From the IMG/VR virus record IMGVR_UViG_3300021255_000060, positions 62,961 through 126,960 of that record: a stretch of DNA of 64,000 bases; one strand, given 5' to 3'. Both the position numbers and the translations under genes were made by a program. The notes beneath the pieces were generated by a model. It was not told where the DNA came from. It searched no databases and was given only the letters and a program-made list of their open reading frames with translations. This stretch comes from a virus (lineage: Duplodnaviria; Heunggongvirae; Uroviricota; Caudoviricetes). Positions 43,972 through 60,711 of this stretch are shown here, piece after piece. Within the stretch, counting starts at the first letter, position 1; each line of letters starts with the position of its first letter.

Positions 43972-44005
43972 CCCCAGCGACCTTCACAGGTGGCCGGGGA
44001 TTTTT
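43972..44005 (+). terminator. rho-independent terminator
   Basis: AATCCCCAGCGACC..GGTGGCCGGGGATTTTTAATT directly after the stop codon. Confidence 0.45.
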
Positions 44006-45100
44006 AATTATTGAGTCCGCAAAAACTAATATTTCATTTTAATGGATTACGGACATCCTTTGCACTTTTATATGGAAACTAACAAAATCTTTCAGTCTCA
44101 ATGAAACTGCAACACTTAGTACTCGATAGCCGATTCAAACAGCTGTTTCCGACTGGAGAAGTCGATGTCCTAGATCGCTAGACGAATCGAGCATATTTTA
44201 TCACTTGGTATCTTTGTCAAGATCCATAATGTGTTTGGATACAACATGCCCATATGAAATGACATGCGAATAATTTCGATTTACAGTCTGTTTGTAAACC
44301 GGATTTGGATTGAATTGTTTGGTTGTTTTCTTGAGTCCCATATAAATTTTGATTTGGATTTTTCTCTTTATCTGTTGCCCTGAGCGTAGCGAAGGGCTTA
44401 TATAAAAACTGGAGAACACACTAAACTCCAGTTATATACACTCTGAAAACCACTACCTATGACAAAGAACGCTGTGTGTTTTTACTTTGCACCTGGGCAA
44501 ACGATCAAGTTCACCCAGGCATAACTACTACTAACCGGATTGGAGGACTCCCTAGAGATAACAGAGCCGTATGTTATCAATCCTTGAACTCGTTTCACCT
44601 TAAACTGTCTAGGGACAGGCGTACAACCAGTTCTATTGTACGACTACGGAATAGTTTTATCACCGTTTATGCCACTCCCAACGACCCTGGCTTTGTATGG
44701 ATCTTACAAACTCTTTACTATGTCCATCAGTTCATAAAGAGCGGGTGACCAGTCCATCAAAAAACACAAGACGCGACCCTTGTGTAGTCAAGATTTTAAA
44801 AACCATATGGGCAGTTCATTCTCCTTATATGAACTGGTGTTCCCTTAAATCTTGGATAATGGAGTTACCCTATTTAGTACTAAATTAAGGAGTAGTACCA
44901 TCTCCTATTGACCTTATGCAGGTATTATAAGCCCTCCGGTTTCTAAATAAATGTCTCATCTTTAAATGAGACCCATGATGAAATACTTGTCATCTATTAG
45001 ATGGAGAACTCAAAATCCAGTACAAGTATTCCATTTGTTGGCATTTTTAATTCGGAGGGTACCGGCATTGGATAGTAAATAATCACCGTACAAGCGACCT
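44006..45100. other. 1.1-kb ORF-free convergent intergenic region rich in hairpins (candidate ncRNA or cis element)
   Basis: Hairpins GCCCTGAGCGTAGCGAAGGGC, CTGGAG..CTCCAG, CCTGGGCAAACGATCAAGTTCACCCAGG, GTACAACCAGTTCTATTGTAC and TCTCATCTTTAAATGAGA. Only short spurious ORFs. Confidence 0.3.
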
Positions 45101-45118
45101 CATACGGTGATTATAAAA

Positions 45119-45688
45119 CTATTCGGTAGGTCCAACATACTCGCTGATGAGGACAACTTTTTGCTTCTTTACAGCGGGTTCACTTACCTGCTTGCCATCT
45201 TTGATTACAGGGTTACCTGCATCATCGAATACATCGGTATAGATTCGATTCCCATCAGCATCAAATGCAGGAACATCGATTTCGATAGTACCAGCACCAG
45301 TGATTTCACCGACAGCAGCAAGAGCCTTCAGGCGAGCGAGATTGTTACCAAGGTCATACCAGGTAGGATTCACAGGCGTGTTGTTAGCATCACGCTTTGA
45401 AAGTGCAGGCAGACCGAACCAAGTAGCCTTCTTACGGCCATTGTATTCGGATTCACATTTCACAATGTGATAGCCAGCCTTCTGACCTTTACGAACTGCG
45501 ACCCATTCAACTTCCATGTCCTCGAATTTAGGGAACCGAAGGGTCTCACCTTCACGAATAGTGTAAGTGTCAAAATTTACACCATCATTCTGCAGGGCAT
45601 TAAGGTTAGTGACGCGTTTGTGCTCACGTGCATTCTGCCCAGTAGTGCCAAAGATAGGCACCTCAACGTTAATCTTTTCAATATTCAT
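45119..45688 (-). CDS. hypothetical protein (first gene of the GC-rich island)
   Basis: 189-aa intact ORF ending TAG. Preceded 3' by the hairpin ACCGTACAAGCGACCTCATACGGT. Confidence 0.35.
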   Translation of the reverse strand: MNIEKINVEVPIFGTTGQNAREHKRVTNLNALQNDGVNFDTYTIREGETLRFPKFEDMEVEWVAVRKGQKAGYHIVKCESEYNGRKKATWFGLPALSKRDANNTPVNPTWYDLGNNLARLKALAAVGEITGAGTIEIDVPAFDADGNRIYTDVFDDAGNPVIKDGKQVSEPAVKKQKVVLISEYVGPTE

Positions 45689-45778
45689 ATTCTTTAATTG
45701 AGCATTTAGTTGCTCTTCCAGTATGGGTGCTTGGTCTTAGTTAAATTAAGAAAAAAATAAGGGTAGCCGAAGCCACCC

Positions 45779-46003
45779 TTACTTGATAAGACGGAGAGAG
45801 AACAACTCTCCATCCTTGCAAACAAACCAGCGATAGTGCCATCTTTGGATGAAACCCTCGCTGTTCTCAATAGTAGAACCATCCTCCATTGCTAGAAGAT
45901 CCTCGTTGTCTTCCTCACGGATAGCATAAGTAGGCACATCAAACGTGTCTCCGTCCACAGTAATCATGAACGGAGACATCTTGATGTCAGTAGTGTACCG
46001 CAT
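45779..46003 (-). CDS. hypothetical protein (GC-rich island)
   Basis: 74-aa ORF. Confidence 0.25.
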   Translation of the reverse strand: MRYTTDIKMSPFMITVDGDTFDVPTYAIREEDNEDLLAMEDGSTIENSEGFIQRWHYRWFVCKDGELFSLRLIK

Positions 46004-46533
46004 TACTCCGGATTGACAGAGATTGCGGCAATAAAGATTTTGCGAAGGCGGTCAGTACGATGAACCTTGCCCTCAGAATCTGTCTCAAAGACAGGCTGAT
46101 GGGCCTCGAAGAGGTCATCACACTTGATACTTCCAATCTGGCAGAGCTTGATGAAGCGCTGCAGATCAGTTGCCATCATCGCCAACTCGCAATTGAGCGG
46201 CCGAACAGACTCATCATAGAAGGAGTCAAGTTCTCCTTCTCCTGACGGAATTCTGCGGAATGTAGAGATAGGGATCTCCACAAACCGCTTTCTCTGGACA
46301 GAATAGCCAGAGATGTACAGGACTTCTGCTCCTTTGAATTCCTTCACGAACGGAAAAGCCTCCTCCTCTTTAGGGAAGATGATTTCCTCGTCCTTCCGGA
46401 ATGAGAAGGCGAGTCCACGGCCTTCGCCAAGTTTTGCAATCTTGGCGTTCTTCTTTGCATCAGCAAGAGACACGCCCTTGTTGTTGCGAATCTGGTTCTC
46501 CTTCGAAAAGGAGATTTCACTACGATTGATCAT
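46003..46533 (-). CDS. hypothetical protein (GC-rich island)
   Basis: 176-aa ORF ending TAA. Confidence 0.3.
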   Translation of the reverse strand: MINRSEISFSKENQIRNNKGVSLADAKKNAKIAKLGEGRGLAFSFRKDEEIIFPKEEEAFPFVKEFKGAEVLYISGYSVQRKRFVEIPISTFRRIPSGEGELDSFYDESVRPLNCELAMMATDLQRFIKLCQIGSIKCDDLFEAHQPVFETDSEGKVHRTDRLRKIFIAAISVNPE

Positions 46534-46597
46534 GTTGCGATGTGTTTATTGAACCTTGTAAACTCCTATCAAGAGAATCTAAGCAAACCTGTTAAGA

Positions 46598-46855
46598 CTA
46601 GATGGCTTGACCATTGCAGTCAAACATCTTCTTCTTGAAGCCAAAATCCCAGACGATCTTGGCAACAACGATCCAGTTACGGCCAATGCCGCGAGAATCG
46701 AGTCTCTCAACAATTTGGAAATCCGCATCCGGATGTTCCGTCATGTAGAGAAGATTCTCGTTGGTGATGAACGCGTGTTCACCATTGCACAGGCGAACAA
46801 CGAAGGAGCAGCGGCATGCGCGCTCAACTTTAAAAGGAAGGTTGTAATTGAACAT
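46598..46855 (-). CDS. hypothetical protein (GC-rich island)
   Basis: 85-aa ORF. Confidence 0.25.
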   Translation of the reverse strand: MFNYNLPFKVERACRCSFVVRLCNGEHAFITNENLLYMTEHPDADFQIVERLDSRGIGRNWIVVAKIVWDFGFKKKMFDCNGQAI

Positions 46856-47039
46856 CGTTAGATAGTTTTGTGGTTGAACATTTTCCCAGTGATCTCCGAA
46901 TGACGGAAATCGTTAGGACTTGAATAATTTGTCTTGCGAAGGCTCATGAAGATGCCTTCTTTGCGCATGTCGCGCATTGCAGCCTTATAGGCCGCATTGG
47001 TGGATTTTGTGTGCATAATATAAGTAAATAATGGTTGAG

Positions 47040-47107
47040 AGTCCTACCGCAGAATCGAACTGCGGTTTACTCCAAGGAGCTGTTCTAGCCATCTGAACTA
47101 GTAGGAC
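47040..47107 (-). ncRNA. tRNA-like element lacking a normal anticodon arm
   Basis: Acceptor GTCCTAC/GTAGGAC. D-arm GTTC-AGATGGCTA-GAAC. T-arm CGCAG-TTCGATT-CTGCG. Only a short GCTCC-TTG-GAGT hairpin sits where the anticodon arm should be. Confidence 0.3.
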
Positions 47108-47138
47108 TTACAGATCTTCAGTTTGAAGAGGTTTCAAG

Positions 47139-47456
47139 CTAATAATAACTTGGTTTAAACTCTTCTCTGAACTGGAGATTTATGCGGAATTCGTCATATT
47201 CCAGGAGTTTTACTCCAAATACATAACGATGACTAACTGTCTCCGCAGGATTCTCCACAGACATTAATATTGATCCACAAATGGCATCAATACTATTAAT
47301 CTTAACAGATTTCCAATCCATCATTGAAGTGATGGCATTCTCGATATCAGGAAGCATATCCTGAAGAATCTGTTTTCTCTGTTCAAGCAGAGCTTTAATC
47401 TGCTTTTGCGTGTCTTTAAATTCTAAGACTTTTGTTGAATACGGCATATTTAGCAA
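47139..47456 (-). CDS. hypothetical protein (GC-rich island)
   Basis: 105-aa ORF. Confidence 0.25.
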   Translation of the reverse strand: MLNMPYSTKVLEFKDTQKQIKALLEQRKQILQDMLPDIENAITSMMDWKSVKINSIDAICGSILMSVENPAETVSHRYVFGVKLLEYDEFRINLQFREEFKPSYY

Positions 47457-47779
47457 ATATTAAACGATTCGACATCATAGAATGCGTGATGATAAGGTTC
47501 ACACGAAACATTGAAGTTTCGCATGATTTCTTTATTATCGCATACATAATCAGGACCAAGAATTACTTTAAGTTTCTTGTGGATGGCATCATACTCAACA
47601 GCACGAATGTCGTTTGAGTATCGGATAGACACATAACCTCTCGAATCATGTATCTCAAAACGAAGTTCACTTATCATGGTTGTATTCAACTGCACGGTTA
47701 TACAAGTATTGCAAATCTTTACCCTCACGAACCCATCCCATTGAAATAGGATACCAAGCCGTTTCCCATTTCTTAGCAA
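47450..47779 (-). CDS. hypothetical protein (GC-rich island; true start may be the internal Met near 47680)
   Basis: 109-aa ORF that overlaps the next gene by 113 nt. Confidence 0.25.
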   Translation of the reverse strand: MLRNGKRLGILFQWDGFVRVKICNTCITVQLNTTMISELRFEIHDSRGYVSIRYSNDIRAVEYDAIHKKLKVILGPDYVCDNKEIMRNFNVSCEPYHHAFYDVESFNIC

Positions 47780-48011
47780 AATCAGGATGCTCTTTAATAG
47801 TTTTCTCTAAATAGAGATACATATAAGCGCATTCGTGATCATAGAGAGTTTTACTAGCAGTAAGTACTGTTTCAAGTGCTTTCTGCAGTTCTTTTGCCGA
47901 ATCGCCAGCAGAATGGCGGCCACGATTACTGAAACCGTTCTTATTAATCCAGTCTTGTATTTCGTACAGACGATTAATAATTGATTCAGGAGTGAAGATC
48001 TGTGTTTTCAT
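47667..48011 (-). CDS. hypothetical protein (GC-rich island), ORF ends at TGA
   Basis: 114-aa ORF. Confidence 0.3.
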   Translation of the reverse strand: MKTQIFTPESIINRLYEIQDWINKNGFSNRGRHSAGDSAKELQKALETVLTASKTLYDHECAYMYLYLEKTIKEHPDFAKKWETAWYPISMGWVREGKDLQYLYNRAVEYNHDK

Positions 48012-48316
48012 TAGAATCGCATTTTAAGTGTTGCACGTTCCTCCTCAAGATAGGTAATGAATTTCTCCTCTACCTTATCCAGAGTATTTCTACACAAAGG
48101 TCCGTTCCAATGATAACTTCCATCAGAATTGACTACGATTGAAGCACCGACATAGCCGATAATAGTATACTGCTTGCGGTTTCTTGCCATCCACTCACAG
48201 ATGGCGTTAACGAGTTCTTCACGCTCTACTTCGAAAGCACGAAGATCCATCTCCAGACCCTTGATCTGAGTCTGGAGATTCTTAATAGTTTGAATGTTAT
48301 TTTTCATATATCCCAA
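48011..48316 (-). CDS. hypothetical coiled-coil protein (GC-rich island)
   Basis: 101-aa ORF. Confidence 0.3.
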   Translation of the reverse strand: MGYMKNNIQTIKNLQTQIKGLEMDLRAFEVEREELVNAICEWMARNRKQYTIIGYVGASIVVNSDGSYHWNGPLCRNTLDKVEEKFITYLEEERATLKMRF

Positions 48317-48552
48317 TAATTATCAGGTATTTCAGAACTTTCAAGTAATTCATACTCAATGTCGCTTTTCAGTTTCTTGAGCATGCTGAGAAGAGCTTCG
48401 CATTCAGCAATTGCATTTCTGCACTGCTTATATGCTCCGCAGAGGTCAGTGCGAGGTTCGCACTCAAGAGACTTGATCACATCTTCGGTGATAAGTCTCT
48501 GATCGGATAGAGTTAATTGTTTCATATTATATGAATTTGGTTTGGCACCCAC
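48304..48552 (-). CDS. hypothetical protein (GC-rich island)
   Basis: 82-aa ORF. Confidence 0.25.
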   Translation of the reverse strand: MGAKPNSYNMKQLTLSDQRLITEDVIKSLECEPRTDLCGAYKQCRNAIAECEALLSMLKKLKSDIEYELLESSEIPDNYWDI

Positions 48553-48604
48553 TCAACCCCATCAGGATTATTACATAGAATTCTACTAAAGTGGGTAAAC
48601 TACA

Positions 48605-48877
48605 TCAGACTCCGAGAGCCTGGAAGATGTTAGCGCATGACTCAGAAGCCATGGGGACAATCCTCTTGCTTCTGAGAGTTGCACGAATTGCAATCATTCT
48701 CTCCAGCTCTTTGGAGAGAAGTTCAATTCTTGTAAAGTTCTTGAACCCATACTGATAGGTCAGAACTTTAACATTGATCTGCTCAGGCTTGAGCTGAGCC
48801 TTCTCACGCATCCTAACGTAAGCGGCTGCAATGAGAACGATGCGTTTTCTCATCTCGCTGTTCTTAACGTGGCACAT
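48605..48877 (-). CDS. hypothetical protein (GC-rich island)
   Basis: 90-aa ORF. Confidence 0.25.
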   Translation of the reverse strand: MCHVKNSEMRKRIVLIAAAYVRMREKAQLKPEQINVKVLTYQYGFKNFTRIELLSKELERMIAIRATLRSKRIVPMASESCANIFQALGV

Positions 48878-49085
48878 AGTCTTAAGCCTTGTTAGAAGTT
48901 AATAATGTAACAGACCCTGCAAGAATGCAAGTAAAGAGGATTACTCCGAAGAATCCAAAGATCTTCAGAAGATACAGACCGAGTGCAGCAATAGCGCAGA
49001 CTCCAAAGAGTCCCAGGATTAATCCCAGGACTCCGAAGATACAAAATAAAAGATCTTTCATGATAAAACGTCTTTAAGAGAAGCC

Positions 49086-49457
49086 TTATCCATTGGGATT
49101 GATACCTTTAATATAATCATCATAAGCATCACTGTACTCTTCCATATGCTGTCTCCAGCTAGGAAGGATTTCAGGAACATCCACGAAGAACATCTGTTTG
49201 ATATCTTCACGAATCTGGAAATCATTGAAACTAGAGAGACACGCAATCTCAAGATACTCCTTGACAGGAGCGACTTGCATTACGTATGCCTCAGCATCAA
49301 TAATGTTGATCCAGCCTGCTTTGTCGTCGGCCAAGCGAGCCCCAATGAAGTAATCTTCGCACTGATTGAATGCGTTGATCACCTCAATGTAGGCATCGAA
49401 CGTGCTGTTGAAGACCCTATCGGTTTCTCCATCAGCAAATACGAATTTAAATGTCAT
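49086..49457 (-). CDS. hypothetical protein (GC-rich island)
   Basis: 123-aa ORF. Confidence 0.3.
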   Translation of the reverse strand: MTFKFVFADGETDRVFNSTFDAYIEVINAFNQCEDYFIGARLADDKAGWINIIDAEAYVMQVAPVKEYLEIACLSSFNDFQIREDIKQMFFVDVPEILPSWRQHMEEYSDAYDDYIKGINPNG

Positions 49458-49542
49458 AGCGTGGTTGCTATTTAGTACTCAAGGCATGACTCGAACATGC
49501 TGATCTCCTATCGGATTCCTCCTTGATACATGAGTATTCCTA

Positions 49543-49770
49543 CTAGTAGCAAATCGCAGTGTCCCCCTCGAGATAATCAATCTCGTAATCGTTGTCATTA
49601 GCAACGTAATTCATGAACATGAGCATAGACATGCCAGCTCTGTTTACGTACGTTTTGACAACGTTATCGTTGACTACCAGGTTAACTGCCGGTTCGCCCT
49701 CGTAGACGGTTCCAACAAGCTCTACCATAATAGACCATGTTGCGGCTGTATCAGTACTCTTATTCTGCAC
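49543..49770 (-). CDS. hypothetical protein (GC-rich island)
   Basis: 75-aa ORF. Confidence 0.25.
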   Translation of the reverse strand: MQNKSTDTAATWSIMVELVGTVYEGEPAVNLVVNDNVVKTYVNRAGMSMLMFMNYVANDNDYEIDYLEGDTAICY

Positions 49771-49822
49771 AATACAGCCTTACCTATGCAGAATAAGTTT
49801 TGGACTATTGAAAGATTGATAC

Positions 49823-50173
49823 CTATTTGAGATACCAATCTTTCACTTTGAACTGCCGACCACTATACCAGCGGTCGCAGATATCCCGAACTTCAGGATA
49901 ATTCATGCCAGTCTCCAGGAGACAAACACGATTATCCTTAAATCCTCGACAATAATCATCGAGGATTTTGGAATCGGTCCATCCAGAACAGTATCCTCCT
50001 AAGAGGTAACTAGTCTCTTCGGAGATTAGCTCAACGTCATCTATTGTGACGTTGTAATAATCTGCGAGGATGCAGATTATATTCTCCTTGGGGATTATGT
50101 CACCTTTGCTTGTTCTCTCGGCAATAACACCGAGAATTACTTCAAAGTTGTTGATAGCAAAATACTTTGCCAT
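49823..50173 (-). CDS. hypothetical protein (GC-rich island), preceded by leader repeat A
   Basis: 116-aa ORF. Confidence 0.3.
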   Translation of the reverse strand: MAKYFAINNFEVILGVIAERTSKGDIIPKENIICILADYYNVTIDDVELISEETSYLLGGYCSGWTDSKILDDYCRGFKDNRVCLLETGMNYPEVRDICDRWYSGRQFKVKDWYLK

Positions 50174-50350
50174 AACATTTTACTAGCCAGGCCTAGATTT
50201 ATTGCGATCCTGGAAGGACACGAATTATCAGTACTTAATGGATCATGCCGCACACCTACCTTGTAGGCGGGTCCCCATCGTTCCACGACTCTTCGTGGTT
50301 TGCCAGAAGCAAAACGCCTTATTATAATGGAAAAGGCTCCTGGCTAGTGC
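50174..50350 (-). promoter_or_regulatory. about 180-nt conserved structured leader, copy A
   Basis: Starts immediately upstream of the ATG at 50173. ACTAGCCAGG ... CCTGGCTAGT form a long-range inverted repeat enclosing CCACGAC..TTATAATGGAA. Homologous to copy B. Confidence 0.4.
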
Positions 50351-50556
50351 TTTACTCAAGCAGAGACGATCCTTATATAGATCGAGAGATTACAGCCTCT
50401 GTCGCAGCTGAGCCGCTCCATGTTTGGAGAACATAGACCCCAATGCAGGAATCGGACCTGCCAACATATAATGTTGCCACTTAAAGGGGTTTGGACATTT
50501 CTATACGCTTAGATTCACCTACGAGCAAAGCTATGAACTCTTGTAGGTGTAAAATG

Positions 50557-50781
50557 TTATTTAGGTAAGCGATATCTCCGCATTCTGCGAAGGTACGCTG
50601 TGAACAGTGTACCACCCTTGCGAGTACGTAAGGGCATTTGAGCCCTCATAGCCAAAGGGTCCACATTATTCACCTTGCGGTGAAGTCTAGCTCTTCGCAG
50701 AGCTTCTTCGAACCTTGAACGGAGACAACCGTCTCCGTTGATGATGTCGTTGACATTGATAATGATGTTTTTGTACATCAT
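50557..50781 (-). CDS. hypothetical basic protein, preceded by leader repeat B
   Basis: 74-aa ORF. Confidence 0.25.
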   Translation of the reverse strand: MMYKNIIINVNDIINGDGCLRSRFEEALRRARLHRKVNNVDPLAMRAQMPLRTRKGGTLFTAYLRRMRRYRLPK

Positions 50782-50960
50782 AGTGCTTTACTAGCCAGGT
50801 CTAGATTCATTAAAGCCCTGGGAAATCACAACTCATCAGTACTAAACGGATCTTGGCTCACGCTTACTATTATTCAGCGGCTCCCCGTTATTCCACGACT
50901 TGTTGTGACGCCAAAAGGCAAACAGCCATTGTTATAATGGAATGCCTTTTGGCTAGTTTG
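50782..50960 (-). promoter_or_regulatory. about 180-nt conserved structured leader, copy B
   Basis: TTTACTAGCCAGGTCTAGATTCATT...CCACGACTTGTTGTGACG...TTATAATGGAATGCCTTTTGGCTAGTTTG, collinear with copy A. Confidence 0.4.
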
Positions 50961-51160
50961 ATCAGCTTTCACGTGGCTGCTGTGCTGATCAGTTACCCTT
51001 GTAGCTCAAGGTACCATATCAGTTGACCCTACCCGGGCCTCGTTGGAATTCAAAACGAATTTCCCATTGGAGGTGGGGAGGGGTCGTTGTGTATGATACT
51101 CCTATCATCCCCGCAATATACACAAATTCCGTAATTTCAACATCTCAGCTCTCTTTTATA

Positions 51161-51197
51161 TGTTTTTGAAATTTTCAAAAATTTTCTTATATTCGCA
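51161..51197 (+). promoter_or_regulatory. Bacteroidetes-type promoter (TTTG -33 element, then TAnnTTTG-like -7 element TTATATTCG)
   Basis: TTTTTGAAATTTTCAAAAATTTTCTTATATTCGCA lies about 22 nt before the ATG at 51219. The same motif recurs at 52647-52680. Confidence 0.4.
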
Positions 51198-51218
51198 CAA
51201 AACTAAAACAATAATATT

Positions 51219-52097
51219 ATGAAAATTAAAAAATATCAAAATGGAAGTAAAGTACAAGAATTTGTAATAAACAAAATAAAGAATACTTTAAAAGACGAAG
51301 ATAAAACACAAAGAATTTTAGATTTTGCCAGAAATCATCCAAAACTAGTAAATTGAGTAATGCCGGAAATAAGAAGAAGGCTTTACGACTACGTTGATCC
51401 ATACGGATACGATGATTTTGGGTCAAGAATTAATACAGCACTATCTGGTAATCAGGGAGAGTACCCAATGCATCTACATGGTAGAGATGATATTTTTGCA
51501 GAATATTTGGGAATTCCAAAAGATAAAAGACACAATTATGAAGATTCTATCAAAGTAATACCTTCTAAATATAGACCTACAAAAGGAGATGATCCAAATT
51601 CAAATTACAAAGCGTTGGATATTGATGATAATACAAAATTTAATCTGATATTTGATGCTTTGTATGATGGAAGAACAAATAAACTTTCTCGAAATAATAG
51701 CAGTTTAACTGACTTATTATCTACTCATACTATTGGAACAGGATTTGATGATAAAGGTCAGTATGTTTCGTATTATGATTTATGAGACATTAACCCAAAA
51801 GTTGGGGAAAGTGCGGTAGATCTTAACAATAGTCCAGAAGAAAAAACAATTAACAAAATAATTGGAAATAATAAAAAAGATGTATCTCTTGGAATAGGGA
51901 AGCCCGTAGAATTTTACGATCGAATATATCTCAATGATTACTTTAATGTAACTCCAGAAGTAGAAAAAAATGCATATTATGGAGGATACATTCGTCCTGC
52001 ATTTTTAGAAGATAGTAGAAAATACAATTCTCCAATTACTGGAGATGAATACTATCAATCAGAAGGTTCTATTCCAATAGTTAAAAATTTAAGATAG
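51219..52097 (+). CDS. hypothetical late protein (2 in-frame TGA)
   Basis: ORF 51360..51785 is in frame with the ATG at 51219 (..PKLVN[W]VMPEIRRR..). It continues through TGA to TAG 52095-52097. 292 aa. Confidence 0.45.
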
Positions 52098-52263
52098 TGA
52101 AATTAATAAAATTACAAAATGCAGATTCTATACCTGCATCTACAGTAATGCACGCGCTCCTAGTATAAACACAAACAAAGTAGAAATATCCAATAATACA
52201 TAAGTTAATATACTTTTGTTGATCAACACTCAAAATTATGTTTAACTTTTAAATTTTAGTATT

Positions 52264-52611
52264 ATGGAAACACTTTTTAACGGTTGAGGAAGTCAACAAT
52301 TTGGTTCTTCACTTTTAGGTTTATTTTTAGCATTATTATTTGCACCAGAAGATTCATTATTTGTAAAGCACCCTTTCTTTCCTTCAGATGTTGTTGTTCC
52401 TGAAGATTTCTCAGAATGATCAGAAGATAAAAAGAAAGCATTTATGGATGAACATTTAGATGAATATTGAAAGAAGTATTTCGATAAAATAGTAAATCCA
52501 AATAAAGAAGAAACTGATAAACTAGAGGAATCTTTAAAGGACATAAATGCGGAAATTAAAACTTTAAATGATGAAAAACAAGAAATTGTAGATGATTGAA
52601 TTCTCAAATAA
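52264..52611 (+). CDS. small secreted/membrane protein (4 in-frame TGA)
   Basis: METLFNG[W]GSQQFGSSLLGLFLALLFA.. with a hydrophobic N-terminus. Hand-translated to TAA 52609-52611. Confidence 0.35.
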
Positions 52612-52615
52612 CGAA

Positions 52616-52644
52616 AATCCCGACTCTTATGAGCCGGGATTAAT
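52616..52644 (+). terminator. rho-independent terminator
   Basis: AATCCCGACTCTTATGAGCCGGGATT followed by AATTATTTT. Confidence 0.45.
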
Positions 52645-52646
52645 TA

Positions 52647-52680
52647 TTTTGAAAATCCAAAAAATTTTCTTATATTCGCA
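52647..52680 (+). promoter_or_regulatory. Bacteroidetes-type promoter, second copy
   Basis: TTTTGAAAATCCAAAAAATTTTCTTATATTCGCA. Confidence 0.4.
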
Positions 52681-52708
52681 GCGATATAAATATTAAAATT
52701 AAAAAATT

Positions 52709-53257
52709 ATGAAAGAAGTAAATAAAGTTTTTGGAGAATACATTGATTCTTATAGCACAGAAACAGAATATAATTGAGCATATAAATTACTTCCACATGT
52801 TTCTGAAATAAACGGAAAGATTAAATACATTCCTCTTGGATATTTTGATAATAAATACATATATCATATATTAGTGATAAATGATTTTGGAGATAGATAC
52901 TCATCTTTTAATCCAAATGAATACATAAGAGATAATATAGAAAGGATAGGTACTGTTTATGAAGAAGGAACCGGAACATTAGTTGGAAAGATATGTATTT
53001 CTGATAAAACATATTATCTTTGAAGAATTAATATTACAGGAGGAACAATGTTTATATCCGATAGCTCAAAAGACGATGGTATAAGAGATGTATGCTGAGG
53101 ATTAACAGAAGAACTATTTCCAAATGATGAAGAGTATTATGATACTAATACACTATGGAAAGATGCAGAAAGAATAATATTAATAGATGATAACAAGAAA
53201 CATTCTTATTCTGAAGGAAAACACAGAGTGGCCGCAATATGAAAAACTTTACGGTAG
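52709..53257 (+). CDS. hypothetical late protein (4 in-frame TGA)
   Basis: MKEVNKVFGEYIDSYSTETEYN[W]AYKLLPH..., ends at TAG 53255-53257. Confidence 0.4.
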
Positions 53258-53433
53258 GTTCAACTCAATTCTTCTATAAATATCCAGATTTTAAATCAAA
53301 AGATATAGATATCCTATCAATACAACCAGAATTACCAACTACTTGTTTACATCACGAGTTTGGACAATTAGATGTGTTCTTATATAAAGATTTATCAAAA
53401 GAAGAATGAATAAAAGATGCATTTGACTATCCA

Positions 53434-53661
53434 ATGAAAATGATAAAATTCTTAAATCCGGAATTTTGTAAATATATAAACTTTACAGTTGAAGAATTAC
53501 CTGTATTTCAAGAATTAATAGATAAAATGGACGAAATGCATAAATACGTTAAGATTATATATGACGCTTATTTAAAGAATAAAGATTTTACTTTAACAGA
53601 CGAACAATTAGATTCTGCTTATAAGGAATATAAATTAGAAAGAAAAAATCCAGATTCATAA
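53434..53661 (+). CDS. hypothetical protein (possibly joined to the upstream gene by a frameshift; its frame is open from 53293)
   Basis: ORF MKMIKFLNPEF... The +2 frame is open from 53293 with no ATG before 53434. Confidence 0.3.
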   Translation: MKMIKFLNPEFCKYINFTVEELPVFQELIDKMDEMHKYVKIIYDAYLKNKDFTLTDEQLDSAYKEYKLERKNPDS

Positions 53662-53704
53662 TTAATCTGGATTTTTATTTTATCTGAATTTTGTTATTAG
53701 CAAA

Positions 53705-53724
53705 ATTTTTATTATTTTTGCGAC
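53705..53724 (+). promoter_or_regulatory. Bacteroidetes-type -7 promoter element (TATTTTTG)
   Basis: TTTTTATTATTTTTGCGACA lies about 40 nt upstream of the ATG at 53765. Confidence 0.3.
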
Positions 53725-53764
53725 AAAATGAAGATGTGTTTAAAAATTAAAAATAAAATTAGAA

Positions 53765-54892
53765 ATGGCAAGAAACTTAACTGGTAATGATATAAAGCTA
53801 ACTAGAAAAAGATCTAGAGAGTTAGCAAACGAAAACATGGGTTTTTCAAACGCCCAATATAATATTGCACTTGCAAATGCAAAAGCTAGCTTGAGAAAAC
53901 AAGGACTTCGTGGAAGAGAATTACGTGATAATGCAAAAGCACTAGTTACTGGAATACAAGTAGAAGATCCAAAGGGTTTAACTGTACCACCAATACAGGT
54001 GGCATTAAATTCTAATGAATTTGTTGGTCCTGCAAGATCTTGAACAGAAGCTATTACAACTACTGGTCCATTAACAGAAACTGCAGAAAGCGTTGCTAAT
54101 AGAAAAGCAATTGATAATCAAATTGTTAAACAACTGGTTGAAAATAAAAAAGATGTTAGAGATGGATTTGAACGTCCTACCGTAACAGTATCCTTAGATG
54201 AATTAAAAGAAATAGGTAGGGGTGTATCTGACACCTATATGAAGGACAGAGAAACAAAAGAAGCAGAAAATCCAAATAATTGGGCACAATATCAAGGTGA
54301 ATTCTGAAAAGCAATGAATAAAGCTAATGCATATCGTCCTTATACAGATTTAGCGGCAATTCAGAATTGAATGTGGGATGATTATAACAGAAATTGGAAA
54401 CCTTATGATAATGCTCACCCTAATTATCGTTGGCACTTACCTACTGAAGCAGAGCTTGCTCCTTATAAGAATTTAACTGGAGTTCCAGCTGGTACACTTA
54501 CTGGTCCAATGGGAACTTGATATGAACAAGGATATAATCCGAATGTTAATTATTTTGATTTTACTAATGCAAAATATGGAGAGCTTGGAGGAAGTAAAAA
54601 AGCATATAATCAAGGTGCAGCTGCTACCGGTGCAATGGTGTTAACTCCAGTTGTCGCTGGAATTGCATCCGATGTCATTGCTGGAGGTCTTCCTGAAACT
54701 ACTGGATATAATCCTGTTGGTGTACAGATGAAACGGCCTGGAGTTATAGGACAAACACGATTACCAAATGGACAATTTGGTTTAAATAAACAAGGCTCTT
54801 GATATATGGACATCTTTAATGGTCAAAGAGTTCCAGGATGAAGAGTTGGAGGTTTTAAATTTGGTGGCAAGCTAGTTAAAAATTTGAAGTAA
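53765..54892 (+). CDS. hypothetical virion/late protein, Gly-rich C-terminus (6 in-frame TGA)
   Basis: ORF 53765..54043 continues through TGA codons (..GPARS[W]TEAIT.., QN[W]MWDDY, GT[W]YEQGY, GS[W]YMD, PG[W]RVGGFKFGGK) to TAA at 54890-54892. TGG Trp codons are also present. Confidence 0.5.
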
Positions 54893-55233
54893 TGAATGAT
54901 ATTAAAACAATATACGAAGCAATCCTTAAAAGAAAAAGTGGTAATTGTGAAGAAACAGAATTACCAATAGATATAGGATATGGTATTGCAGTTGCTCCAT
55001 CTATACCAGTTGAAGATCCGAGATACGATATAATACCTTGAGAAGAAGTTAATCAAAATGACATTAATAAAATTATAGAGATTGTATATAGTGGAGAACC
55101 AGAAAGTAAAGGAAAATTAACACTTGTTAAAACTAGTAATGATATAAAAGTTGATTTAGATTATGATTTAGAATTGAAAACCGATCATTTGCCAGTTGGA
55201 TTTTATTACTTTTACAAACCTTCTATAGCCTAA
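54892..55233 (+). CDS. hypothetical protein
   Basis: MNDIKTIYEAILKRK.., 1 TGA, 113 aa. Confidence 0.35.
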
Positions 55234-55234
55234 T

Positions 55235-55876
55235 ATGAAAAACTATTTAAATTCTTTTAATCCAAGTATTACGTACACTCCATATATTGTACAACAAAAT
55301 CCAATCAAACTTGAAACTCCAGAATTTAAATTTGACACATATAAACCAGAATATAAACTTAAAGATCTTAAAGATGAAGTAATAGAACCTGTAGCAAAAC
55401 CAGCAGATGTTCCAGTTCCTTTATCTCCAAGTATGGAAGGTAAAATTTCATTATCCAATTTAGGTAGTGTGAATTACGATAATCTAAATTATATAGGTGA
55501 AAAATTAAGAAACGCTGGAATTAAAAATAATCAATTAGCGGCCATTCTCGCTACAGTTGTTGCAGAGTCTGGTGCAAATCCGAAAGCGGTAGGAGATGCA
55601 GGAAAAGCAAAAGGTTTGTGACAATGGCATCCCGATAGGTATAAAGCTGGAGAAGATTTAGATTCTCAAGTGCAATTAATGTTAGATGAATTGTCTAATG
55701 TTAAAAGTGGAGGATGATTAGGTAGACAAAATTATATGGATGCGTTTAATGGAGATGATCTATGAACAAGTGTGGATACACTAACTAGAAGATTTATACG
55801 TCCTGCAGATGGTCACGGCCAAGCAAGGAAACGATATGAAATAGCACAAAAAATATTAAAACAATTAAATGGCTAA
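55235..55876 (+). CDS. lytic transglycosylase (SLT-domain) protein; probable lysin or virion-associated murein hydrolase
   Basis: ..LAAILATVVAESGANPKAVGDAGKAKGL[W]QWHP.. matches the SLT motif ES...NP.A...GA.GLMQ. The Trp is encoded by TGA at 55619-55621. 213 aa. Confidence 0.5.
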
Positions 55877-57704
55877 CATAAAAGATATATTAAATAGTAT
55901 AAAACTTGCTATTAGATCTAAAGGTGTTAGTGTTGCAGATTGTGATTCTCCAGAAGTTTATCCAGAGAAAATACTACAAATAAAAAGAACAGTAAGCGAT
56001 GCAACAGATACAGTTTGTATACATGCTTACTGTTCTTCTCAAAATACTCCTTCTAAGCCTACTGGAAATCCATATAATTTTAGTACTGGAGCTATAACTT
56101 ATCCAGAAGGATGATCTAATCCAGATAATTTATCTGGCAATATATGGGAATCACATATTGTTGTAACATCTAATACAAGTGTGCAAGACGGTATAGTTGA
56201 AAATTGAACAAGACCGATAAAACTAATTGCAAGTTATAACTTAGAAGACATTCTTGATTATGACGCTTTAAATGAAGAAATTTCTCAGAAAATTGCAGAA
56301 GATTATCAAGAGGTATATGAAGATTATCAAACTGCATTATCTGAACTTCAAAGTGATGTTGAAAGATATAAAAATAAAACAGATACTTTAGAAGGAGAAT
56401 ACGAAAACCTTGTAATTAAAACTACAGAAGATTTAAATGGTGTAACTAGAGATATTGCTGAACAAGTACTTAATTCTGAAAGCTTTTCAACTAAAGTTAC
56501 TCAGATTGTTGGTGAGGATTACGTAACTCAATCTACTTTTAATCAAACTGCGAATTCTATTACATCTAGAATTACAGAACTAGATGGAGAAAATGGAAGA
56601 ATGTCTCAGTTAGAACAATCTGTTAATGGTATTGAATCGGAAGTATTTGATTCCGAAACAGGGGCGTCTAAAATCACACAGTTAGCAAATTCCGTTTCGA
56701 CAACAATTAGTAATGAAACATCTGCAGCTGCTATTGTAGCAAAAGTGAATGAATCTGGATCAGAAATTACTTTAAACGCAGATAAAATAAATCTTACTGG
56801 AGGGCAAACTTTTATAGACAAGCTTGTAAACAATAATTCGTTTATAAATAATCTCCAAGTAAAAAAATTGAACACCGTTTCAACCGAAGCCAAAATCCTC
56901 ATAGAAAACGGAGAACTGATTGTTTATCAATATATAAATAATACTTGGATAAAAAGATTATCATTAGGTTTCGATACATTTAGAAATAAGGTAGCAATTG
57001 TAATATATGATGAAAATGGAGTTGCAATTAAAGATCTAACTGATGCTGGATTAAATGATAGAACCGGAACTGCATCTCATGTAGTAGTACGACAAGCATC
57101 TACTATGGAACTTGGAGAGTATAAACAAATTCCAGAAACTACAGAACAAACTGTAGGATGACCAAACTATGTAGCTGGAGGTTTAGTTCCGTGTGTTTGT
57201 GATGGAAGCATGTTATATAAATACGTTGCAGAAAAAGTTGAAAGATACATAGATGGAGTTAGTACTGGAGAAATATTATATAATGATCCTACAATAAATT
57301 CAAGCGTTACAGAAGATCACTATGTTTCATCTTGTTATGTAGATGGTAAGATATTTACATCACAAAATGTAGATTGAAATAACTATCAAGATTATTTAGC
57401 TGATGGTTACTATAGATATAAAGCAGACACACCATGTGATTATCGACAAAATTCGCAAGATGAGTTATTAACAACAATGCATGAATTTGATGTATTAACA
57501 ATTGATAATGGAGTTATTACAAATACTAGAACTTGTGTATTTGATACATTTGAAAATATACAATATACTGATCGTACAACTAATATTTGTGATGAAGTTT
57601 CTACTCCATCTCAATGAAATATTTTGATTGATCACATATCTGATTCTTCAACACAAGTAGACTTTGTGCCATCTGAAGAAAACATTGAACAAGGTACGCC
57701 ATAA
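55869..57704 (+). CDS. tail fibre / tail-associated structural protein with coiled-coil segments
   Basis: 611 aa. ORFs 55869..56114 and 56601..57161 are in one frame joined by TGA codons. Coiled-coil EDYQEVYEDYQTALSELQSDVERYKNKTDTLEGEYENL. Ser/Thr/Asn-rich. Confidence 0.45.
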
Positions 57705-57709
57705 ACAAA

Positions 57710-57750
57710 AAAAATCCCAGACTCTTAATTGAGCCTGGGATTTTTATTTT
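57710..57750 (+). terminator. rho-independent terminator (same hairpin family as 52616-52644)
   Basis: AATCCCAGACTCTTAATTGAGCCTGGGATT followed by TTTATTTT. Confidence 0.45.
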
Positions 57751-57921
57751 ATTTTGGTACTGCATCATCTCCTCCTTCATCATCGCTCTCTTCATCTTCT
57801 TTTGGATTTTCTACTGTGTAAGGAAAGTGTTTATATTCATCATATAGTTCTTTTTCCATTTCAATTGATATTGGTATTTCTCTACCAATGATTTTGTTAT
57901 AAAGTGTTTTTAAATCGTTCA
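57748..57921 (-). CDS. small acidic protein
   Basis: Hand translation: MNDLKTLYNKIIGREIPISIEMEKELYDEYKHFPYTVENPKEDEESDDEGGDDAVPK. Confidence 0.3.
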
Positions 57922-58032
57922 TTTTATTTTAATTGTTTTATAGTTGAAATTATCTTTTAATTTTATTCCTTTGACGAAGGAAAATAAGGTCCCACAAGTT
58001 TATATGCAAAGAACCATAATTATTTAATTGTC

Positions 58033-59478: not shown

Positions 59479-59495
59479 AATTATTTAAATTCTAT

Positions 59496-59945: not shown

Positions 59946-59969
59946 AATACAATTTCTTTAATTGTTTTT

Positions 59970-60411: not shown

Positions 60412-60431
60412 TATACACATTATTTATGATG

Positions 60432-60626
60432 TCAAGATCTTGCATTACGTGCGAAATTGGCCTTCTTTCGAATTTTTGGATTCGGAGATCTTAAGCCTTT
60501 TGCTATACACGCCTCTGTTACTTTACCGTTACAATATTTTGTAAACGATCCTTTTTGAGACTCTTTTATTTTAATCTTAGAGCCTTTCTTAAATTTTTGT
60601 ACTAAGTATTCTATTTTCTCATTCAT
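60432..60626 (-). CDS. small basic protein
   Basis: 64-aa ORF. Confidence 0.3.
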   Translation of the reverse strand: MNEKIEYLVQKFKKGSKIKIKESQKGSFTKYCNGKVTEACIAKGLRSPNPKIRKKANFARNARS

Positions 60627-60711
60627 AATATTCTATTTTTATTTATTATTTGCAAATATAAATATTTTTGATTATATTTCAAAATACAGATTTTGAATTG
60701 CGAATAAAAAT

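What the first reader, a model, noticed from the sequence alone, without database searches (positions are those of the whole stretch)
50174..50960. Two homologous ~180-nt structured leaders upstream of two adjacent small genes
Copies at 50174-50350 and 50782-50960 share ACTAGCCAGG..(~150 nt)..CCTGGCTAGT long-range pairing plus internal conserved blocks (CCACGAC, TTATAATGGAA). Each starts right at the ATG of a minus-strand gene. They may be a riboswitch, attenuator or T-box-like leader, or a duplicated promoter-operator module.
Basis: seen in the sequence. Interest (0 to 1): 0.55.

Follow-up and report, generated by a model that had tools for sequence, protein, structure and literature searches.

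The report
Duplicated structured leader RNA, phage early genes
Two diverged copies of a ~170-nt folded RNA sit directly in front of two unrelated small early genes of an uncultured crAss-like rumen phage; the fold is kept by compensatory mutations and matches no described RNA family, but it was found only in this phage lineage and its function is inferred, not shown.

Summary
Copies c1 (50182-50348) and c2 (50790-50957) are about 75% identical. Homology stops at the ATGs of two unrelated minus-strand genes. A covariance model built from c1 and a relative's copy finds c2 at E 1.5e-28 and nothing else in any sequence searched with it.

The sense (minus) strand folds into a four-way junction: P1 closing stem, P2, a long P3 arm and P4. 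Of 47 pairs, 98.6% of cells are paired and 8 pairs carry double compensatory changes (0 of 500 shuffles reach this). Three G.U pairs are invariant. One-base indels rule out a conserved ORF.

Rfam, the GenBank phage collection, IMG/VR, JGI metagenomes and GTDB genomes gave no homologue. The only relative is one copy in a sister phage.

P1 ends exactly 8 nt before each AUG, and each AUG lies in a small predicted hairpin. Junction bases are not conserved and no terminator follows, so a riboswitch, T-box or attenuator is not supported.

My best reading is a portable cis-acting 5'-leader module for translation or mRNA processing of early genes. Its repeated copies also seem to act as recombination linkers for gene cassettes. 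It is a new, narrowly distributed RNA family whose mechanism is unproven.

The parts
50182..50348 (-). Copy c1 of the structured element (ACUAG...CUAGU), the leader of the 116-aa gene
   Evidence: The model R1 hit 50179-50350 scores 219.9 bits. RNA MFE is -57.9 kcal/mol, z = -2.77.
50790..50957 (-). Copy c2 of the structured element, the leader of the 74-aa ORF
   Evidence: The R1 hit 50787-50959 scores 122.7 bits, E 1.5e-28; the model was built without c2. MFE is -57.7 kcal/mol, z = -3.50, and the MFE fold is the four-way junction.
50344..50348 (-). c1 P1, 5' strand (ACUAG). It pairs with 50182-50186 (CUAGU). In c1 it can extend to 10 bp (50339-50348 with 50182-50191).
   Evidence: Invariant in all three sequences (helix 1). 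The inner GG/CC pairs of the extended form are broken in c2.
50303..50343 (-). c1 P2 arm: P2a CCAGGAGC/GCUUCUGG, closing an apical region that holds the invariant UUCCAUUAUAA (50322-50332)
   Evidence: P2a has 2 compensatory pairs, 1 G.U-to-A-U change and no broken pair between c1 and c2 (helix 2). The loop block is invariant.
50219..50297 (-). c1 P3 arm, about 27 bp in five helical segments with internal loops. It includes the invariant segment AGUCGUGGAA (50281-50290) opposite AGUACUGAU (50227-50235).
   Evidence: 6 compensatory pairs lie in helices 4-7 and three G.U pairs are invariant. Invariant blocks.
50187..50213 (-). c1 P4 hairpin: CCAGG/CCUGG stem and a 17-nt loop whose 3' half, AAUNAAUCUAG, is conserved
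   Evidence: The stem is invariant (helix 8). The alignment shows loop conservation.
50174..50181 (-). 8-nt spacer (AAAAUGUU) between P1 and the AUG of the 116-aa gene. The spacer is also 8 nt in c2 (50782-50789, AAAGCACU) and in L010 (AACACGUU).
   Evidence: Read from the sequence.
50149..50177 (-). Predicted hairpin that sequesters the AUG of the 116-aa gene (positions -4..+8 pair with +13..+25)
   Evidence: P(unpaired AUG) is 0.02, rank 2 of 99 candidate ORFs (code-4 ORFs of at least 60 aa) in the window. L010 keeps it as a 10-bp hairpin.
50762..50781 (-). Predicted hairpin that sequesters the AUG of the 74-aa ORF (AUGAUGU/ACAUCAU)
   Evidence: P(unpaired AUG) is 0.06, which would rank about 8th against the same set.
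49823..50173 (-). 116-aa early ORFan downstream of c1
   Evidence: No Pfam hit. Only two protein clusters among 5.8 billion sequences.
50557..50781 (-). 74-aa arginine-rich ORF downstream of c2. It is unrelated to the 116-aa protein and absent from relative L010.
50504..50550 (-). 47-nt hairpin module (CACCUACAAGAG...CUCGUAGGUG) just after the 74-aa ORF. It is 100% identical to L010 1354-1400, where it follows the 116-aa gene instead.
50345..50356 (-). 12-nt junction repeat AGUAAAGCACUA at the 5' border of c1. The identical 12-mer lies at the 3' border of c2 (50781-50792). The pair brackets the ORF74 cassette.
   Evidence: family D12; read.

Best explanation
The two copies belong to a lineage-specific structured RNA, read on the minus (sense) strand. 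It forms the 5' leader (c2) and the intercistronic leader (c1) of small early ORFan genes in a TGA-recoded crAss-like sheep-rumen phage. The conserved fold is a four-way junction of about 166 nt. P1 clamps the two ends together. P2 carries the invariant loop UUCCAUUAUAA. P3 is a long arm with an invariant internal helix. P4 is a hairpin. P1 ends 8 nt before the AUG, and the AUG itself lies in a small local hairpin. I infer that the module acts in cis on initiation of the gene behind it. It would be a self-contained folded domain that sits at the ribosome platform (standby) position just upstream of a sequestered start codon. It is probably recognised by a protein rather than a small ligand, and so sets when or how well the early gene is translated; it may also mark a processing point. 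At the DNA level the repeated copies appear to serve as homology linkers through which early-gene cassettes are gained and lost. Shown here: the homology, the strand-specific conserved structure, the fixed position relative to the AUG, and the cassette differences between relatives. Inferred: transcription as part of the early mRNA, the translational role, and the protein partner.
For: Structure: 47 pairs, 98.6% of cells paired, 8 pairs changed on both sides, 0 of 500 shuffles reach this, and slid controls give 25-42% paired. c1 and c2 differ at 20 of 94 paired and 25 of 75 unpaired positions, yet only one pair is broken in c2. Strand: three invariant G.U pairs plus several variable ones would be A.C mismatches on the + strand. 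Minus-strand RNA folds better than plus-strand RNA, -57.9 and -57.7 against -54.0 and -47.2 kcal/mol. Non-coding: 1-nt indels shift the reading frame between c1 and L010, and every frame has stops. Leader position: homology stops at the ATG and the downstream proteins are unrelated; the spacer from P1 to the AUG is 8 nt in all three distinct sequences. Both AUGs are predicted to be sequestered, ranking 2nd and about 8th among roughly 100 candidate ORFs. Junction bases vary while apical and internal loops are invariant, which fits protein or tertiary contacts better than a ligand pocket. Cassette behaviour: relative L010 has one copy and lacks ORF74; the 47-nt hairpin is 100% identical but sits at a different position; a 12-nt repeat brackets the ORF74 cassette. 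From established knowledge, structured leaders that abut the start codon dock on the 30S platform in the rpsO and thrS operators, and the lambda N leader is a phage early-gene precedent.
Against: No expression data were available, so transcription, transcript ends and processing are unknown. There are only three distinct sequences, two of them 94% identical, so all covariation comes from one c1-c2 comparison, and the scored alignment was fitted to the model. In every predicted fold the 8-nt spacer stays single-stranded and P1 does not touch the AUG, so no structural link between the element and the AUG hairpin has been shown. The AUG hairpins are thermodynamic predictions on AU-rich sequence. 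In c2 the 8-nt spacer may be a recombination scar, since it equals the c1 5' flank plus ACU, rather than a selected distance. The nearest-neighbour MFE of c1 and L010 prefers an extended-P1 rod by about 6 kcal/mol over the four-way junction, so the base of the structure is not settled. The invariant TTATAATGGAA could be conserved as an antisense -10 box rather than for any RNA function.
Confidence: 0.4

Rival explanations
1. The elements are RNA processing or stability signals. They would be intercistronic double-stranded structures cut by host RNase III (or RNase P/E), splitting the early polycistronic mRNA into monocistronic pieces. This would leave protective structures at the new ends and could free the downstream start codon, as at the T7 early RNase III sites and the lambda N leader.
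For: The elements lie between or ahead of early cistrons. P1 brings the 5' and 3' ends together, and the P3 arm is about 27 bp of irregular duplex. Homologous copies precede successive early genes, as in T7 (established knowledge). The AUG hairpins could be opened after cleavage.
Against: No cleavage data exist. The conserved fold is a branched four-way junction of about 170 nt, not the 50-60-nt single hairpin of T7 sites. The invariant loops and the invariant P3b helix exceed what RNase III needs. This reading overlaps with the best explanation and does not exclude it.
Confidence: 0.2
2. The elements are stable, abundant non-coding RNAs made early in infection and acting in trans, for example as a decoy or sponge for a host factor or defence system. 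Their position before genes would then be incidental.
For: The crAss-like phage phi14:2 makes two very abundant early intergenic RNAs of unknown function that persist through infection (bioRxiv 10.1101/2020.03.07.982082). The element is compact, closed by P1, has invariant loops suited to binding a partner, and occurs in two copies.
Against: R1 finds no homologue in the phi14:2 early region or in cr52_1. No promoter or terminator brackets the elements on the sense strand. The element keeps a fixed 8-nt distance to a start codon in all three cases, which a free-standing RNA gene does not need.
Confidence: 0.12
3. The elements work at the DNA level as repeated regulatory and recombination cassettes. 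Each would be a promoter/operator module, possibly the antisense sigma-70-like promoter or a structured early promoter. They would also be linkers for modular shuffling, like the PeSL cassettes of T4-type phages.
For: The + strand of c1 carries TTGCCA-17-TATAAT, 11 of 12 matches. TATAAT lies inside the invariant TTATAATGGAA in all copies, with a TG-extended -10 in c2 and L010. crAss-like middle promoters are sigma-70-like. ORF74 is flanked by two copies here, while the relative has a single copy and no ORF74, and a 12-nt junction repeat brackets the cassette. This parallels the PeSL deletion/insertion scheme (PMC2839356).
Against: The promoter-like site points away from the adjacent genes, and no promoter-like site lies on the sense strand within the elements. 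A promoter or recombination linker does not select for 8 double compensatory changes across 47 pairs or for invariant G.U pairs on one strand. The shuffling role is compatible with the RNA explanation and is included in it.
Confidence: 0.1
4. The element is a riboswitch or ligand-controlled switch. Its two alternative foldings at the base, extended P1 plus a rod versus P2a plus P4, would be toggled by a metabolite.
For: Four segments (GCCAGG, CUGGC, CCAGG, CCUGGC) can pair in two mutually exclusive ways. c1 and L010 favour one form and c2 favours the other.
Against: No Rfam match. The junction bases are not conserved between copies. Neither state changes the accessibility of the AUG or of the 8-nt spacer. 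No terminator follows. The downstream genes are unrelated ORFans with no metabolic link. The rod-specific helices have 0 compensatory changes and 7 broken cells in c2.
Confidence: 0.05
5. The elements are selfish miniature inverted-repeat elements (MITEs) or a neutral tandem duplication with no function.
For: There are terminal inverted repeats (10 bp in c1, 8 bp in c2). Copy number varies between relatives.
Against: There is no target-site duplication. Only two copies exist, both in the same orientation and at the same distance from a start codon. Substitutions inside the element are compensatory, which neutral decay would not produce. No copy was found in IMG/VR, JGI metagenomes or GTDB genomes.
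Confidence: 0.03

Closest known systems
PeSL (promoter-early stem-loop) cassettes of T4-type phages (PMC2839356, PMC4122927)
   Same: Both are repeated intergenic modules of about 100-170 bp that run up to the start codon of small ORFan early genes. In both cases an ORFan flanked by two copies in one phage corresponds to a single copy in a close relative, and recombination scars lie at the module borders.
   Different: PeSLs are defined by a strong sigma-70-like sense promoter, a G/C stem-loop terminator and a Shine-Dalgarno sequence. Here there is no sense-strand promoter or SD, no U-tract terminator, and the conserved feature is a 47-bp four-way-junction RNA fold with covariation.
RNase III processing sites of the phage T7/T3 early region, and the lambda N-leader RNase III site (established knowledge)
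   Same: Both are homologous structured RNA elements placed ahead of successive early genes in one polycistronic transcript. Both lie next to start codons and influence mRNA stability and translation.
   Different: T7 sites are single irregular hairpins of about 50-60 nt. This element is a branched structure of about 170 nt with invariant loops. No cleavage has been shown and there is no sequence similarity.
Abundant early intergenic non-coding RNAs of crAss-like phage phi14:2 (bioRxiv 10.1101/2020.03.07.982082)
   Same: Both come from the order Crassvirales, lie in non-coding sequence between small early genes near the start of the early region, and have unknown function.
   Different: There is no detectable homology (R1 best hit 7.3 bits). 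The phi14:2 regions are about 1.7 kb and AT-rich. Expression is shown there and not here.
Structured translational operators that dock on the 30S platform (rpsO pseudoknot, thrS operator) and start-codon hairpin operators (MS2 replicase) (established knowledge)
   Same: All are folded domains that end a few nucleotides upstream of the AUG, or place the AUG inside a small hairpin.
   Different: Those operators bind a known repressor protein and belong to autoregulated genes. Here the partner is unknown and the two downstream genes are unrelated.
Riboswitches and T-box leaders (Rfam)
   Same: They share the 5'-leader position, a P1 that closes a multi-helix junction, and alternative pairings at the base.
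   Different: There is no Rfam match, the junction core is not conserved, there is no terminator or RBS-sequestering expression platform, and there are no specifier or T-box motifs.

Membership tests
Any Rfam family (riboswitch, T-box, leader, ribozyme, sRNA) | Covariance-model match at or near the family's gathering score | tested here: not met
   Only 15 tRNA hits in the window at gathering thresholds. No hit overlaps either element at E<=10 with permissive filters over 49700-51300.
T-box leader | Stem I specifier loop, the conserved T-box sequence, and a terminator/antiterminator upstream of an aminoacyl-tRNA-related gene | tested here: not met
   No RF00230 hit. No terminator-like site lies in or after the elements. 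The downstream genes are ORFans without Pfam domains.
Riboswitch (generic) | Conserved unpaired core nucleotides that form a ligand pocket | tested here: not met
   J2/3 is CAAAC in c1 and CGU in c2; J3/4 is UCCUU in c1 and AUUUC in c2. Only three sequences are available, so this is weakly informative.
Riboswitch (generic) | An expression platform: alternative pairing that hides a terminator, RBS or start codon | tested here: not met
   Both alternative folds leave the 8-nt spacer and the AUG region unchanged. No terminator is present.
PeSL-type regulatory cassette | Repeated intergenic motif that abuts the start codon of ORFans in a variable early region | tested here: met
   Homology ends at the ATG of two unrelated ORFans. 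The region differs between relatives.
PeSL-type regulatory cassette | Sense-strand sigma-70-like early promoter inside the motif | tested here: not met
   No minus-strand promoter-like site lies within 50174-50350 or 50782-50960; the only strong site is antisense. No TAnnTTTG motif occurs in the elements on the minus strand.
PeSL-type regulatory cassette | Stem-loop that terminates upstream transcription | tested here: inconclusive
   The elements are highly structured, but no T-run follows them. Terminator activity cannot be tested here.
PeSL-type regulatory cassette | Gain or loss of ORFans between two copies in close relatives | tested here: met
   The window has c2-ORF74-c1, while L010/L011 have one copy and no ORF74. 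A 12-nt junction repeat brackets the cassette, and the 47-nt hairpin has moved.
T7-type RNase III early processing site | Irregular dsRNA of about 20 bp or more in an intercistronic position | tested here: inconclusive
   The P3 arm has about 27 bp interrupted by three internal loops, and c1 is intercistronic. The branched architecture differs from T7 sites.
T7-type RNase III early processing site | Specific cleavage by RNase III | not testable with these tools
   This needs in vitro cleavage or in vivo end mapping.
MITE / small transposable element | Terminal inverted repeats with target-site duplication, and dispersed copies | tested here: not met
   Terminal inverted repeats are present, but the flanks are not duplicated. 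There are two copies only, in a fixed context. None was found in the public collections scanned.
tRNA / tmRNA-like gene | Cloverleaf recognised by ARAGORN or the Rfam tRNA model | tested here: not met
   ARAGORN finds 18 tRNAs and none at 50-51 kb. Rfam agrees.
Retron msr-msd | Terminal inverted repeats a1/a2, with a reverse transcriptase gene immediately downstream | tested here: not met
   A P1-like terminal pairing is present, but the downstream proteins (116 aa, 74 aa) have no Pfam domain.
N4-type virion-RNAP hairpin promoter | Small (5-7 bp, 3-nt loop) hairpin on the template strand upstream of early genes | tested here: not met
   The structure is about 170 nt, and the G.U pattern places it on the non-template (sense) strand.

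The most novel reading that the evidence does not exclude
The element could be a new kind of portable translation-initiation device for a host that does not use Shine-Dalgarno pairing. The host is inferred to be Prevotella or another Bacteroidota, from the kinship with Suoliviridae crAss-like phages. In this reading the folded RNA's closing helix sits where an SD duplex would sit, 8 nt before the AUG. It recruits or parks the 30S subunit and unlocks a start codon held in a hairpin, so the phage can attach any newly acquired early gene to a ready-made expression module. A second unexcluded reading is that it is the long-sought recognition element for early transcription in crAss-like phages, whose early promoters show no common sequence motif.
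Probability: 0.1. Interest if true: 0.75.

Novelty: new member of a known kind. Interest (0 to 1): 0.45.

Why it matters
crAss-like phages are among the most abundant gut and rumen viruses, yet control of their early genes is poorly understood. Their early promoters show no common motif, and abundant early non-coding RNAs of unknown function have been reported in one cultured member. This locus offers a compact candidate with good covariation support: a folded RNA module reused in front of unrelated early ORFans, in the non-recoded early block of a TGA-recoded phage. If it controls translation or processing, it would be a handle on early gene expression in Bacteroidota hosts, which lack Shine-Dalgarno pairing. 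It would also be a concrete example of regulatory RNA cassettes driving gene shuffling outside T4-type phages. Its very narrow distribution limits how general it can be.

Tried and rejected
1. Homologue hunting by exact DNA blocks. Three IMG/VR scans, one JGI metagenome scan and one GTDB genome scan returned only chance matches. L001-L008 are terminator hairpins. L013-L024 and L037 show no similarity beyond the pattern. L038 scores 16.9 bits only because it was pre-selected by the pattern.

2. blastn of 49800-51150 against GenBank phages gave no match.

3. Protein-anchored searches. The 116-aa protein has only two clusters. The 141-aa code-11 fragment of the neighbouring late gene found nothing, which wasted one search. 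The full code-4 protein found 20 relatives, but their contigs (L025-L032, L039-L042) lack an adjacent early operon and give no R1 hit.

4. L034 at first seemed to join c2 to a different gene. It is a scaffold gap of Ns caused by collapse of the repeat.

5. R1 on the phi14:2 early region and on the whole cr52_1 genome found nothing. One 15.9-bit hit (L046 33915-34076) has P4 and other pairs broken and was discarded.

6. Coding hypothesis. In code 4 an ORF (50481-51017) runs through c2, but it needs 6 in-frame TGAs, and the frame is not conserved in c1 or L010. Rejected.

7. Motif recall. Hammerhead CUGAUGA occurs in c2 only (CUGAUAA in c1). The loop-E AGUA/GAA register does not fit the flanking pairs. 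The cloverleaf analogy gets no tool support.

8. Pairing of the invariant P2 loop (CCAU) with the start codon is 7 bp in c2 but interrupted in c1 and L010, so it is not conserved.

9. A literature search for the sequence blocks returned only unrelated primer sequences.

10. A shuffle script for DNA-parameter z-scores timed out. Only MFEs were compared.
Full report
CONTEXT

The window comes from an AT-rich phage, about 30% GC, that carries 18 tRNA genes. Two of these are suppressors, with anticodons UCA (16732-16803) and UUA (20999-21073).

Translating with TGA=Trp roughly doubles the summed ORF length, from 7,667 to 14,532 aa for ORFs of at least 150 aa. In-frame TGAs concentrate in genes at 0.3-12 kb and 51.2-64 kb. 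ORFs between about 12 and 50 kb mostly lack them; the exceptions are largely short or overlapping ORFs that may be spurious.

The DNA polymerase (7139-9025) is 47-49% identical to those of uncultured crAss-like phages such as cr52_1 (Suoliviridae). A relative of the neighbouring late gene lies next to a Crass_capsid gene. The same sequence occurs in sheep-rumen metagenomes, namely the Logan contig from SRR873603 and the SHIW14 scaffolds.

The finding lies at the right-hand end of a GC-richer block (44-51.1 kb, 37-47% GC) of small minus-strand genes. This is just inside a divergent promoter region at about 51.15-51.22 kb, where cumulative GC skew reaches its minimum.

OBSERVATION

The two copies are real. 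The alignment of the copies with their flanks has 80% mean column identity. Homology starts at ACUAG on the minus strand and stops at the start codons. The downstream proteins, 116 aa and 74 aa, are unrelated: BLASTP finds no alignment, and the DNA alignment collapses after the ATG.

In c2 the 5' strand reads ACUAGCCAAA. No further copy exists in the window.

THE ELEMENT IS A STRUCTURED RNA ON THE SENSE STRAND

A related phage contig was found through an 83%-identical homologue of the 116-aa protein. L010, and the identical L011 and L012, carry a single copy that is 94% identical to c1.

I built a covariance model (R1) from c1 and L010 with a four-way-junction structure. It finds c2 at 122.7 bits, E 1.5e-28, and aligns it with only one non-canonical pair.

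On that alignment (A6):
- 47 pairs are 98.6% paired.
- 8 pairs changed on both sides while staying paired.
- 4 more pairs changed on one side through G.U.
- No shuffle out of 500 reaches these values.
- Sliding the 3' partners by 1-3 columns drops pairing to 25-42%.

c1 and c2 differ at 20 of 94 paired and 25 of 75 unpaired positions. With that much divergence, independent substitution would give about two doubly changed pairs, most of them broken.

Three G.U pairs are invariant and several more are variable. All would be A.C mismatches on the + strand. The minus-strand RNA also folds better: -57.9 and -57.7 against -54.0 and -47.2 kcal/mol, with z-scores of -2.8 and -3.5.

One-base indels between c1 and L010, and stops in every frame, exclude a conserved ORF. 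The long code-4 ORF through c2 needs six in-frame TGAs and is not conserved.

Caveats: there are only three distinct sequences, two of them close, and A6 was fitted to the model.

ARCHITECTURE

c1 (window 50350 to 50179, minus strand):

GCACUAGCCAGGAGCCUUUUCCAUUAUAAUAAGGCGUUUUGCUUCUGGCAAACCACGAAGAGUCGUGGAACGAUGGGGACCCGCCUACAAGGUAGGUGUGCGGCAUGAUCCAUUAAGUACUGAUAAUUCGUGUCCUUCCAGGAUCGCAAUAAAUCUAGGCCUGGCUAGUAAA

..(((((((((((((.....((..........))......)))))))).....((((((..((((((....((((((..(((((((((...)))))))...)).....))))))...))).)))..)))))).....(((((.................))))))))))...

- P1 (ACUAG/CUAGU) is invariant.
- P2a has two compensatory pairs.
- The P3 arm has six compensatory pairs.
- P4 (CCAGG/CCUGG) is invariant.

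An alternative fold has an extended 10-bp P1 plus a helix between the P2a 3' strand and the P4 5' strand, forming a rod. It is thermodynamically preferred in c1 and L010 (-57.9 against -51.3 kcal/mol). c2 prefers the four-way junction (-57.7 against -53.5 kcal/mol). On A6 the rod-specific helices show no compensatory change and seven broken cells in c2. I therefore take the four-way junction as the conserved architecture and leave a two-state behaviour open.

Bases at the junction are not conserved. The invariant bases lie elsewhere:
- the P2 apical region, UUCCAUUAUAA;
- the P3b helix with its flanking loops, AGUCGUGGAA opposite AGUACUGAU;
- the 3' half of the P4 loop, AAUNAAUCUAG.

UUCC in the P2 loop and GGAA in the P3 internal loop are complementary and both invariant. 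This could be a tertiary contact, but it is speculative and untestable without variation.

RELATION TO THE GENES

P1 ends exactly 8 nt before the AUG in c1, c2 and L010, although the spacer sequences differ. There is no Shine-Dalgarno sequence, which fits a Bacteroidota host (inferred from the phage family).

In the context of leader plus 60 nt of CDS, both AUGs are predicted to lie in local hairpins. For ORF116, positions -4..+8 pair with +13..+25, and P(unpaired AUG) is 0.02, rank 2 of 99 candidate ORFs (code-4 ORFs of at least 60 aa) in the window. L010 keeps this hairpin at 10 bp. For ORF74, AUGAUGU pairs with ACAUCAU, and P(unpaired AUG) is 0.06, about rank 8.

The element itself does not touch the AUG in any predicted fold.

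CASSETTE BEHAVIOUR

Relative to L010, the window carries an extra unit made of c2, ORF74 and a 47-nt hairpin. That hairpin (50550 to 50504) is 100% identical to the one that follows the 116-aa gene in L010, while the surrounding sequence is 88% identical.

The 12-mer AGUAAAGCACUA occurs at the 3' border of c2, running into the AUG of ORF74, and again at the 5' border of c1 (family D12). The ORF74 cassette is thus bracketed by a junction repeat, as if c2 and c1 were once adjacent.

This mirrors the PeSL scheme of T4-type phages, in which an ORFan flanked by two regulatory cassettes in one phage corresponds to a single cassette in its relative (PMC2839356). Unlike a PeSL, the element has no sense-strand promoter or SD.

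DISTRIBUTION

No Rfam family matches. There is nothing in the GenBank phage collection, IMG/VR, JGI metagenomes or GTDB genomes. There is also nothing in more distant crAss-like relatives, in phi14:2 or in cr52_1. The family is so far confined to one rumen phage lineage.

INTERPRETATION

The element is a functional sense-strand RNA structure used as a portable leader in front of unrelated early ORFans; my confidence in this is about 0.85.

A translational role seems most likely to me, for three reasons: the fixed 8-nt distance to the AUG, the sequestered start codons, and the conservation of loops rather than of the junction core. The element would act as a platform or standby domain, or as a protein-binding operator, in cis. 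Cleavage there could be part of the same mechanism.

I give the combined statement 0.4. RNA processing or stability alone gets 0.2. A trans-acting stable early RNA gets 0.12; the precedent is phi14:2. A purely DNA-level cassette or promoter gets 0.1. A riboswitch gets 0.05. A MITE or neutral repeat gets 0.03.

The invariant TTATAATGGAA doubles as a strong antisense sigma-70-like -10 box. c1 has TTGCCA-17-TATAAT, and c2 and L010 have a TG-extended -10. crAss-like middle promoters are sigma-70-like. An antisense promoter embedded in the element therefore cannot be excluded and might contribute to shutting off the early genes.

VERDICT

The 'structured leader' interpretation is supported. The specific riboswitch, T-box and attenuator classes are not. 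This is a new, narrowly distributed RNA family of a known general kind, with an unproven mechanism. The matching metatranscriptomes (PMC4158751) could test transcription and processing directly.

Noticed in passing
window 16732-16803 and 20999-21073; genes at 271-11728 and 51219-64000: The phage carries a UGA-suppressor tRNA (anticodon UCA) and a tRNA with anticodon UUA, which would read UAA. In-frame TGA (read as Trp) is used in replication genes at 0.3-12 kb and structural genes at 51-64 kb. It is largely absent from ORFs in the 12-50 kb block, so recoding is partial. The UAA-reading tRNA is unexpected, because TAA is the commonest stop codon here.
   Followed up: partly
window 44000-51100: A block of 37-47% GC lies within a genome of about 30% GC. 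It holds small minus-strand ORFans without Pfam or PHROG hits and ends at the divergent promoter region. It looks like a separately evolving early or hypervariable module.
   Followed up: partly
window 50504-50550 (minus strand); L010 1354-1400: A 47-nt hairpin module is 100% identical between two phages whose flanks are about 88% identical, but it sits after different genes. Its loop contains TAGCTTTG, which matches the Bacteroidetes -7 promoter motif TAnnTTTG.
   Followed up: partly
window 51020-51130 (minus strand); L010 about 440-540; L011 about 613-690: A GC-rich hairpin (GACCCCUCCCC...GGGUAGGGUC) at the very start of the early leader is conserved at 81-89% in the relatives, and its inner hairpin differs between them. 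In L011 it follows a different upstream gene. The fold z-score of the whole 185-nt stretch is only -0.84.
   Followed up: partly
window 50300-50328 (+ strand); also 50930-50938: A sigma-70-like promoter, TTGCCA-17-TATAAT (11 of 12 matches), lies inside c1 on the antisense strand. c2 and L010 have a TG-extended -10 at the same place. It would drive transcription antisense to the early genes, toward the late operon.
   Followed up: no
L034 5261-5358: A public scaffold of this phage has a run of Ns exactly between the end of c2 and the inside of the 116-aa gene. The c1/c2 repeat breaks or collapses short-read assemblies, so copy number in public contigs may be unreliable.
   Followed up: yes
window 58033-59478 (minus strand): A 481-aa protein is built of many repeats of about 23 aa (APELPATTLA..CY..MF..CT.L), resembling leucine-rich repeats. 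It is encoded on the opposite strand, inside the plus-strand late region, in a local GC peak of 41%.
   Followed up: no
window 13591-15180 (minus strand): A GroEL-like chaperonin gene (PHROG 5725, E 5e-83) needs one in-frame TGA to reach its full length of 529 aa.
   Followed up: no
window 44200-45118; L010 6462-8750: Stretches of about 0.9 kb (window) and about 2 kb (L010) next to tRNA-Glu(CUC) have no convincing ORF. They were not examined for further non-coding RNAs.
   Followed up: no
window 49750-49758 (minus strand): The 9-mer AGUACUGAU, invariant in the P3 arm of both elements, recurs just after a hairpin upstream of the next early gene (ORF 49543-49770). The window has 4 matches against 0.64 expected.
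   Followed up: no
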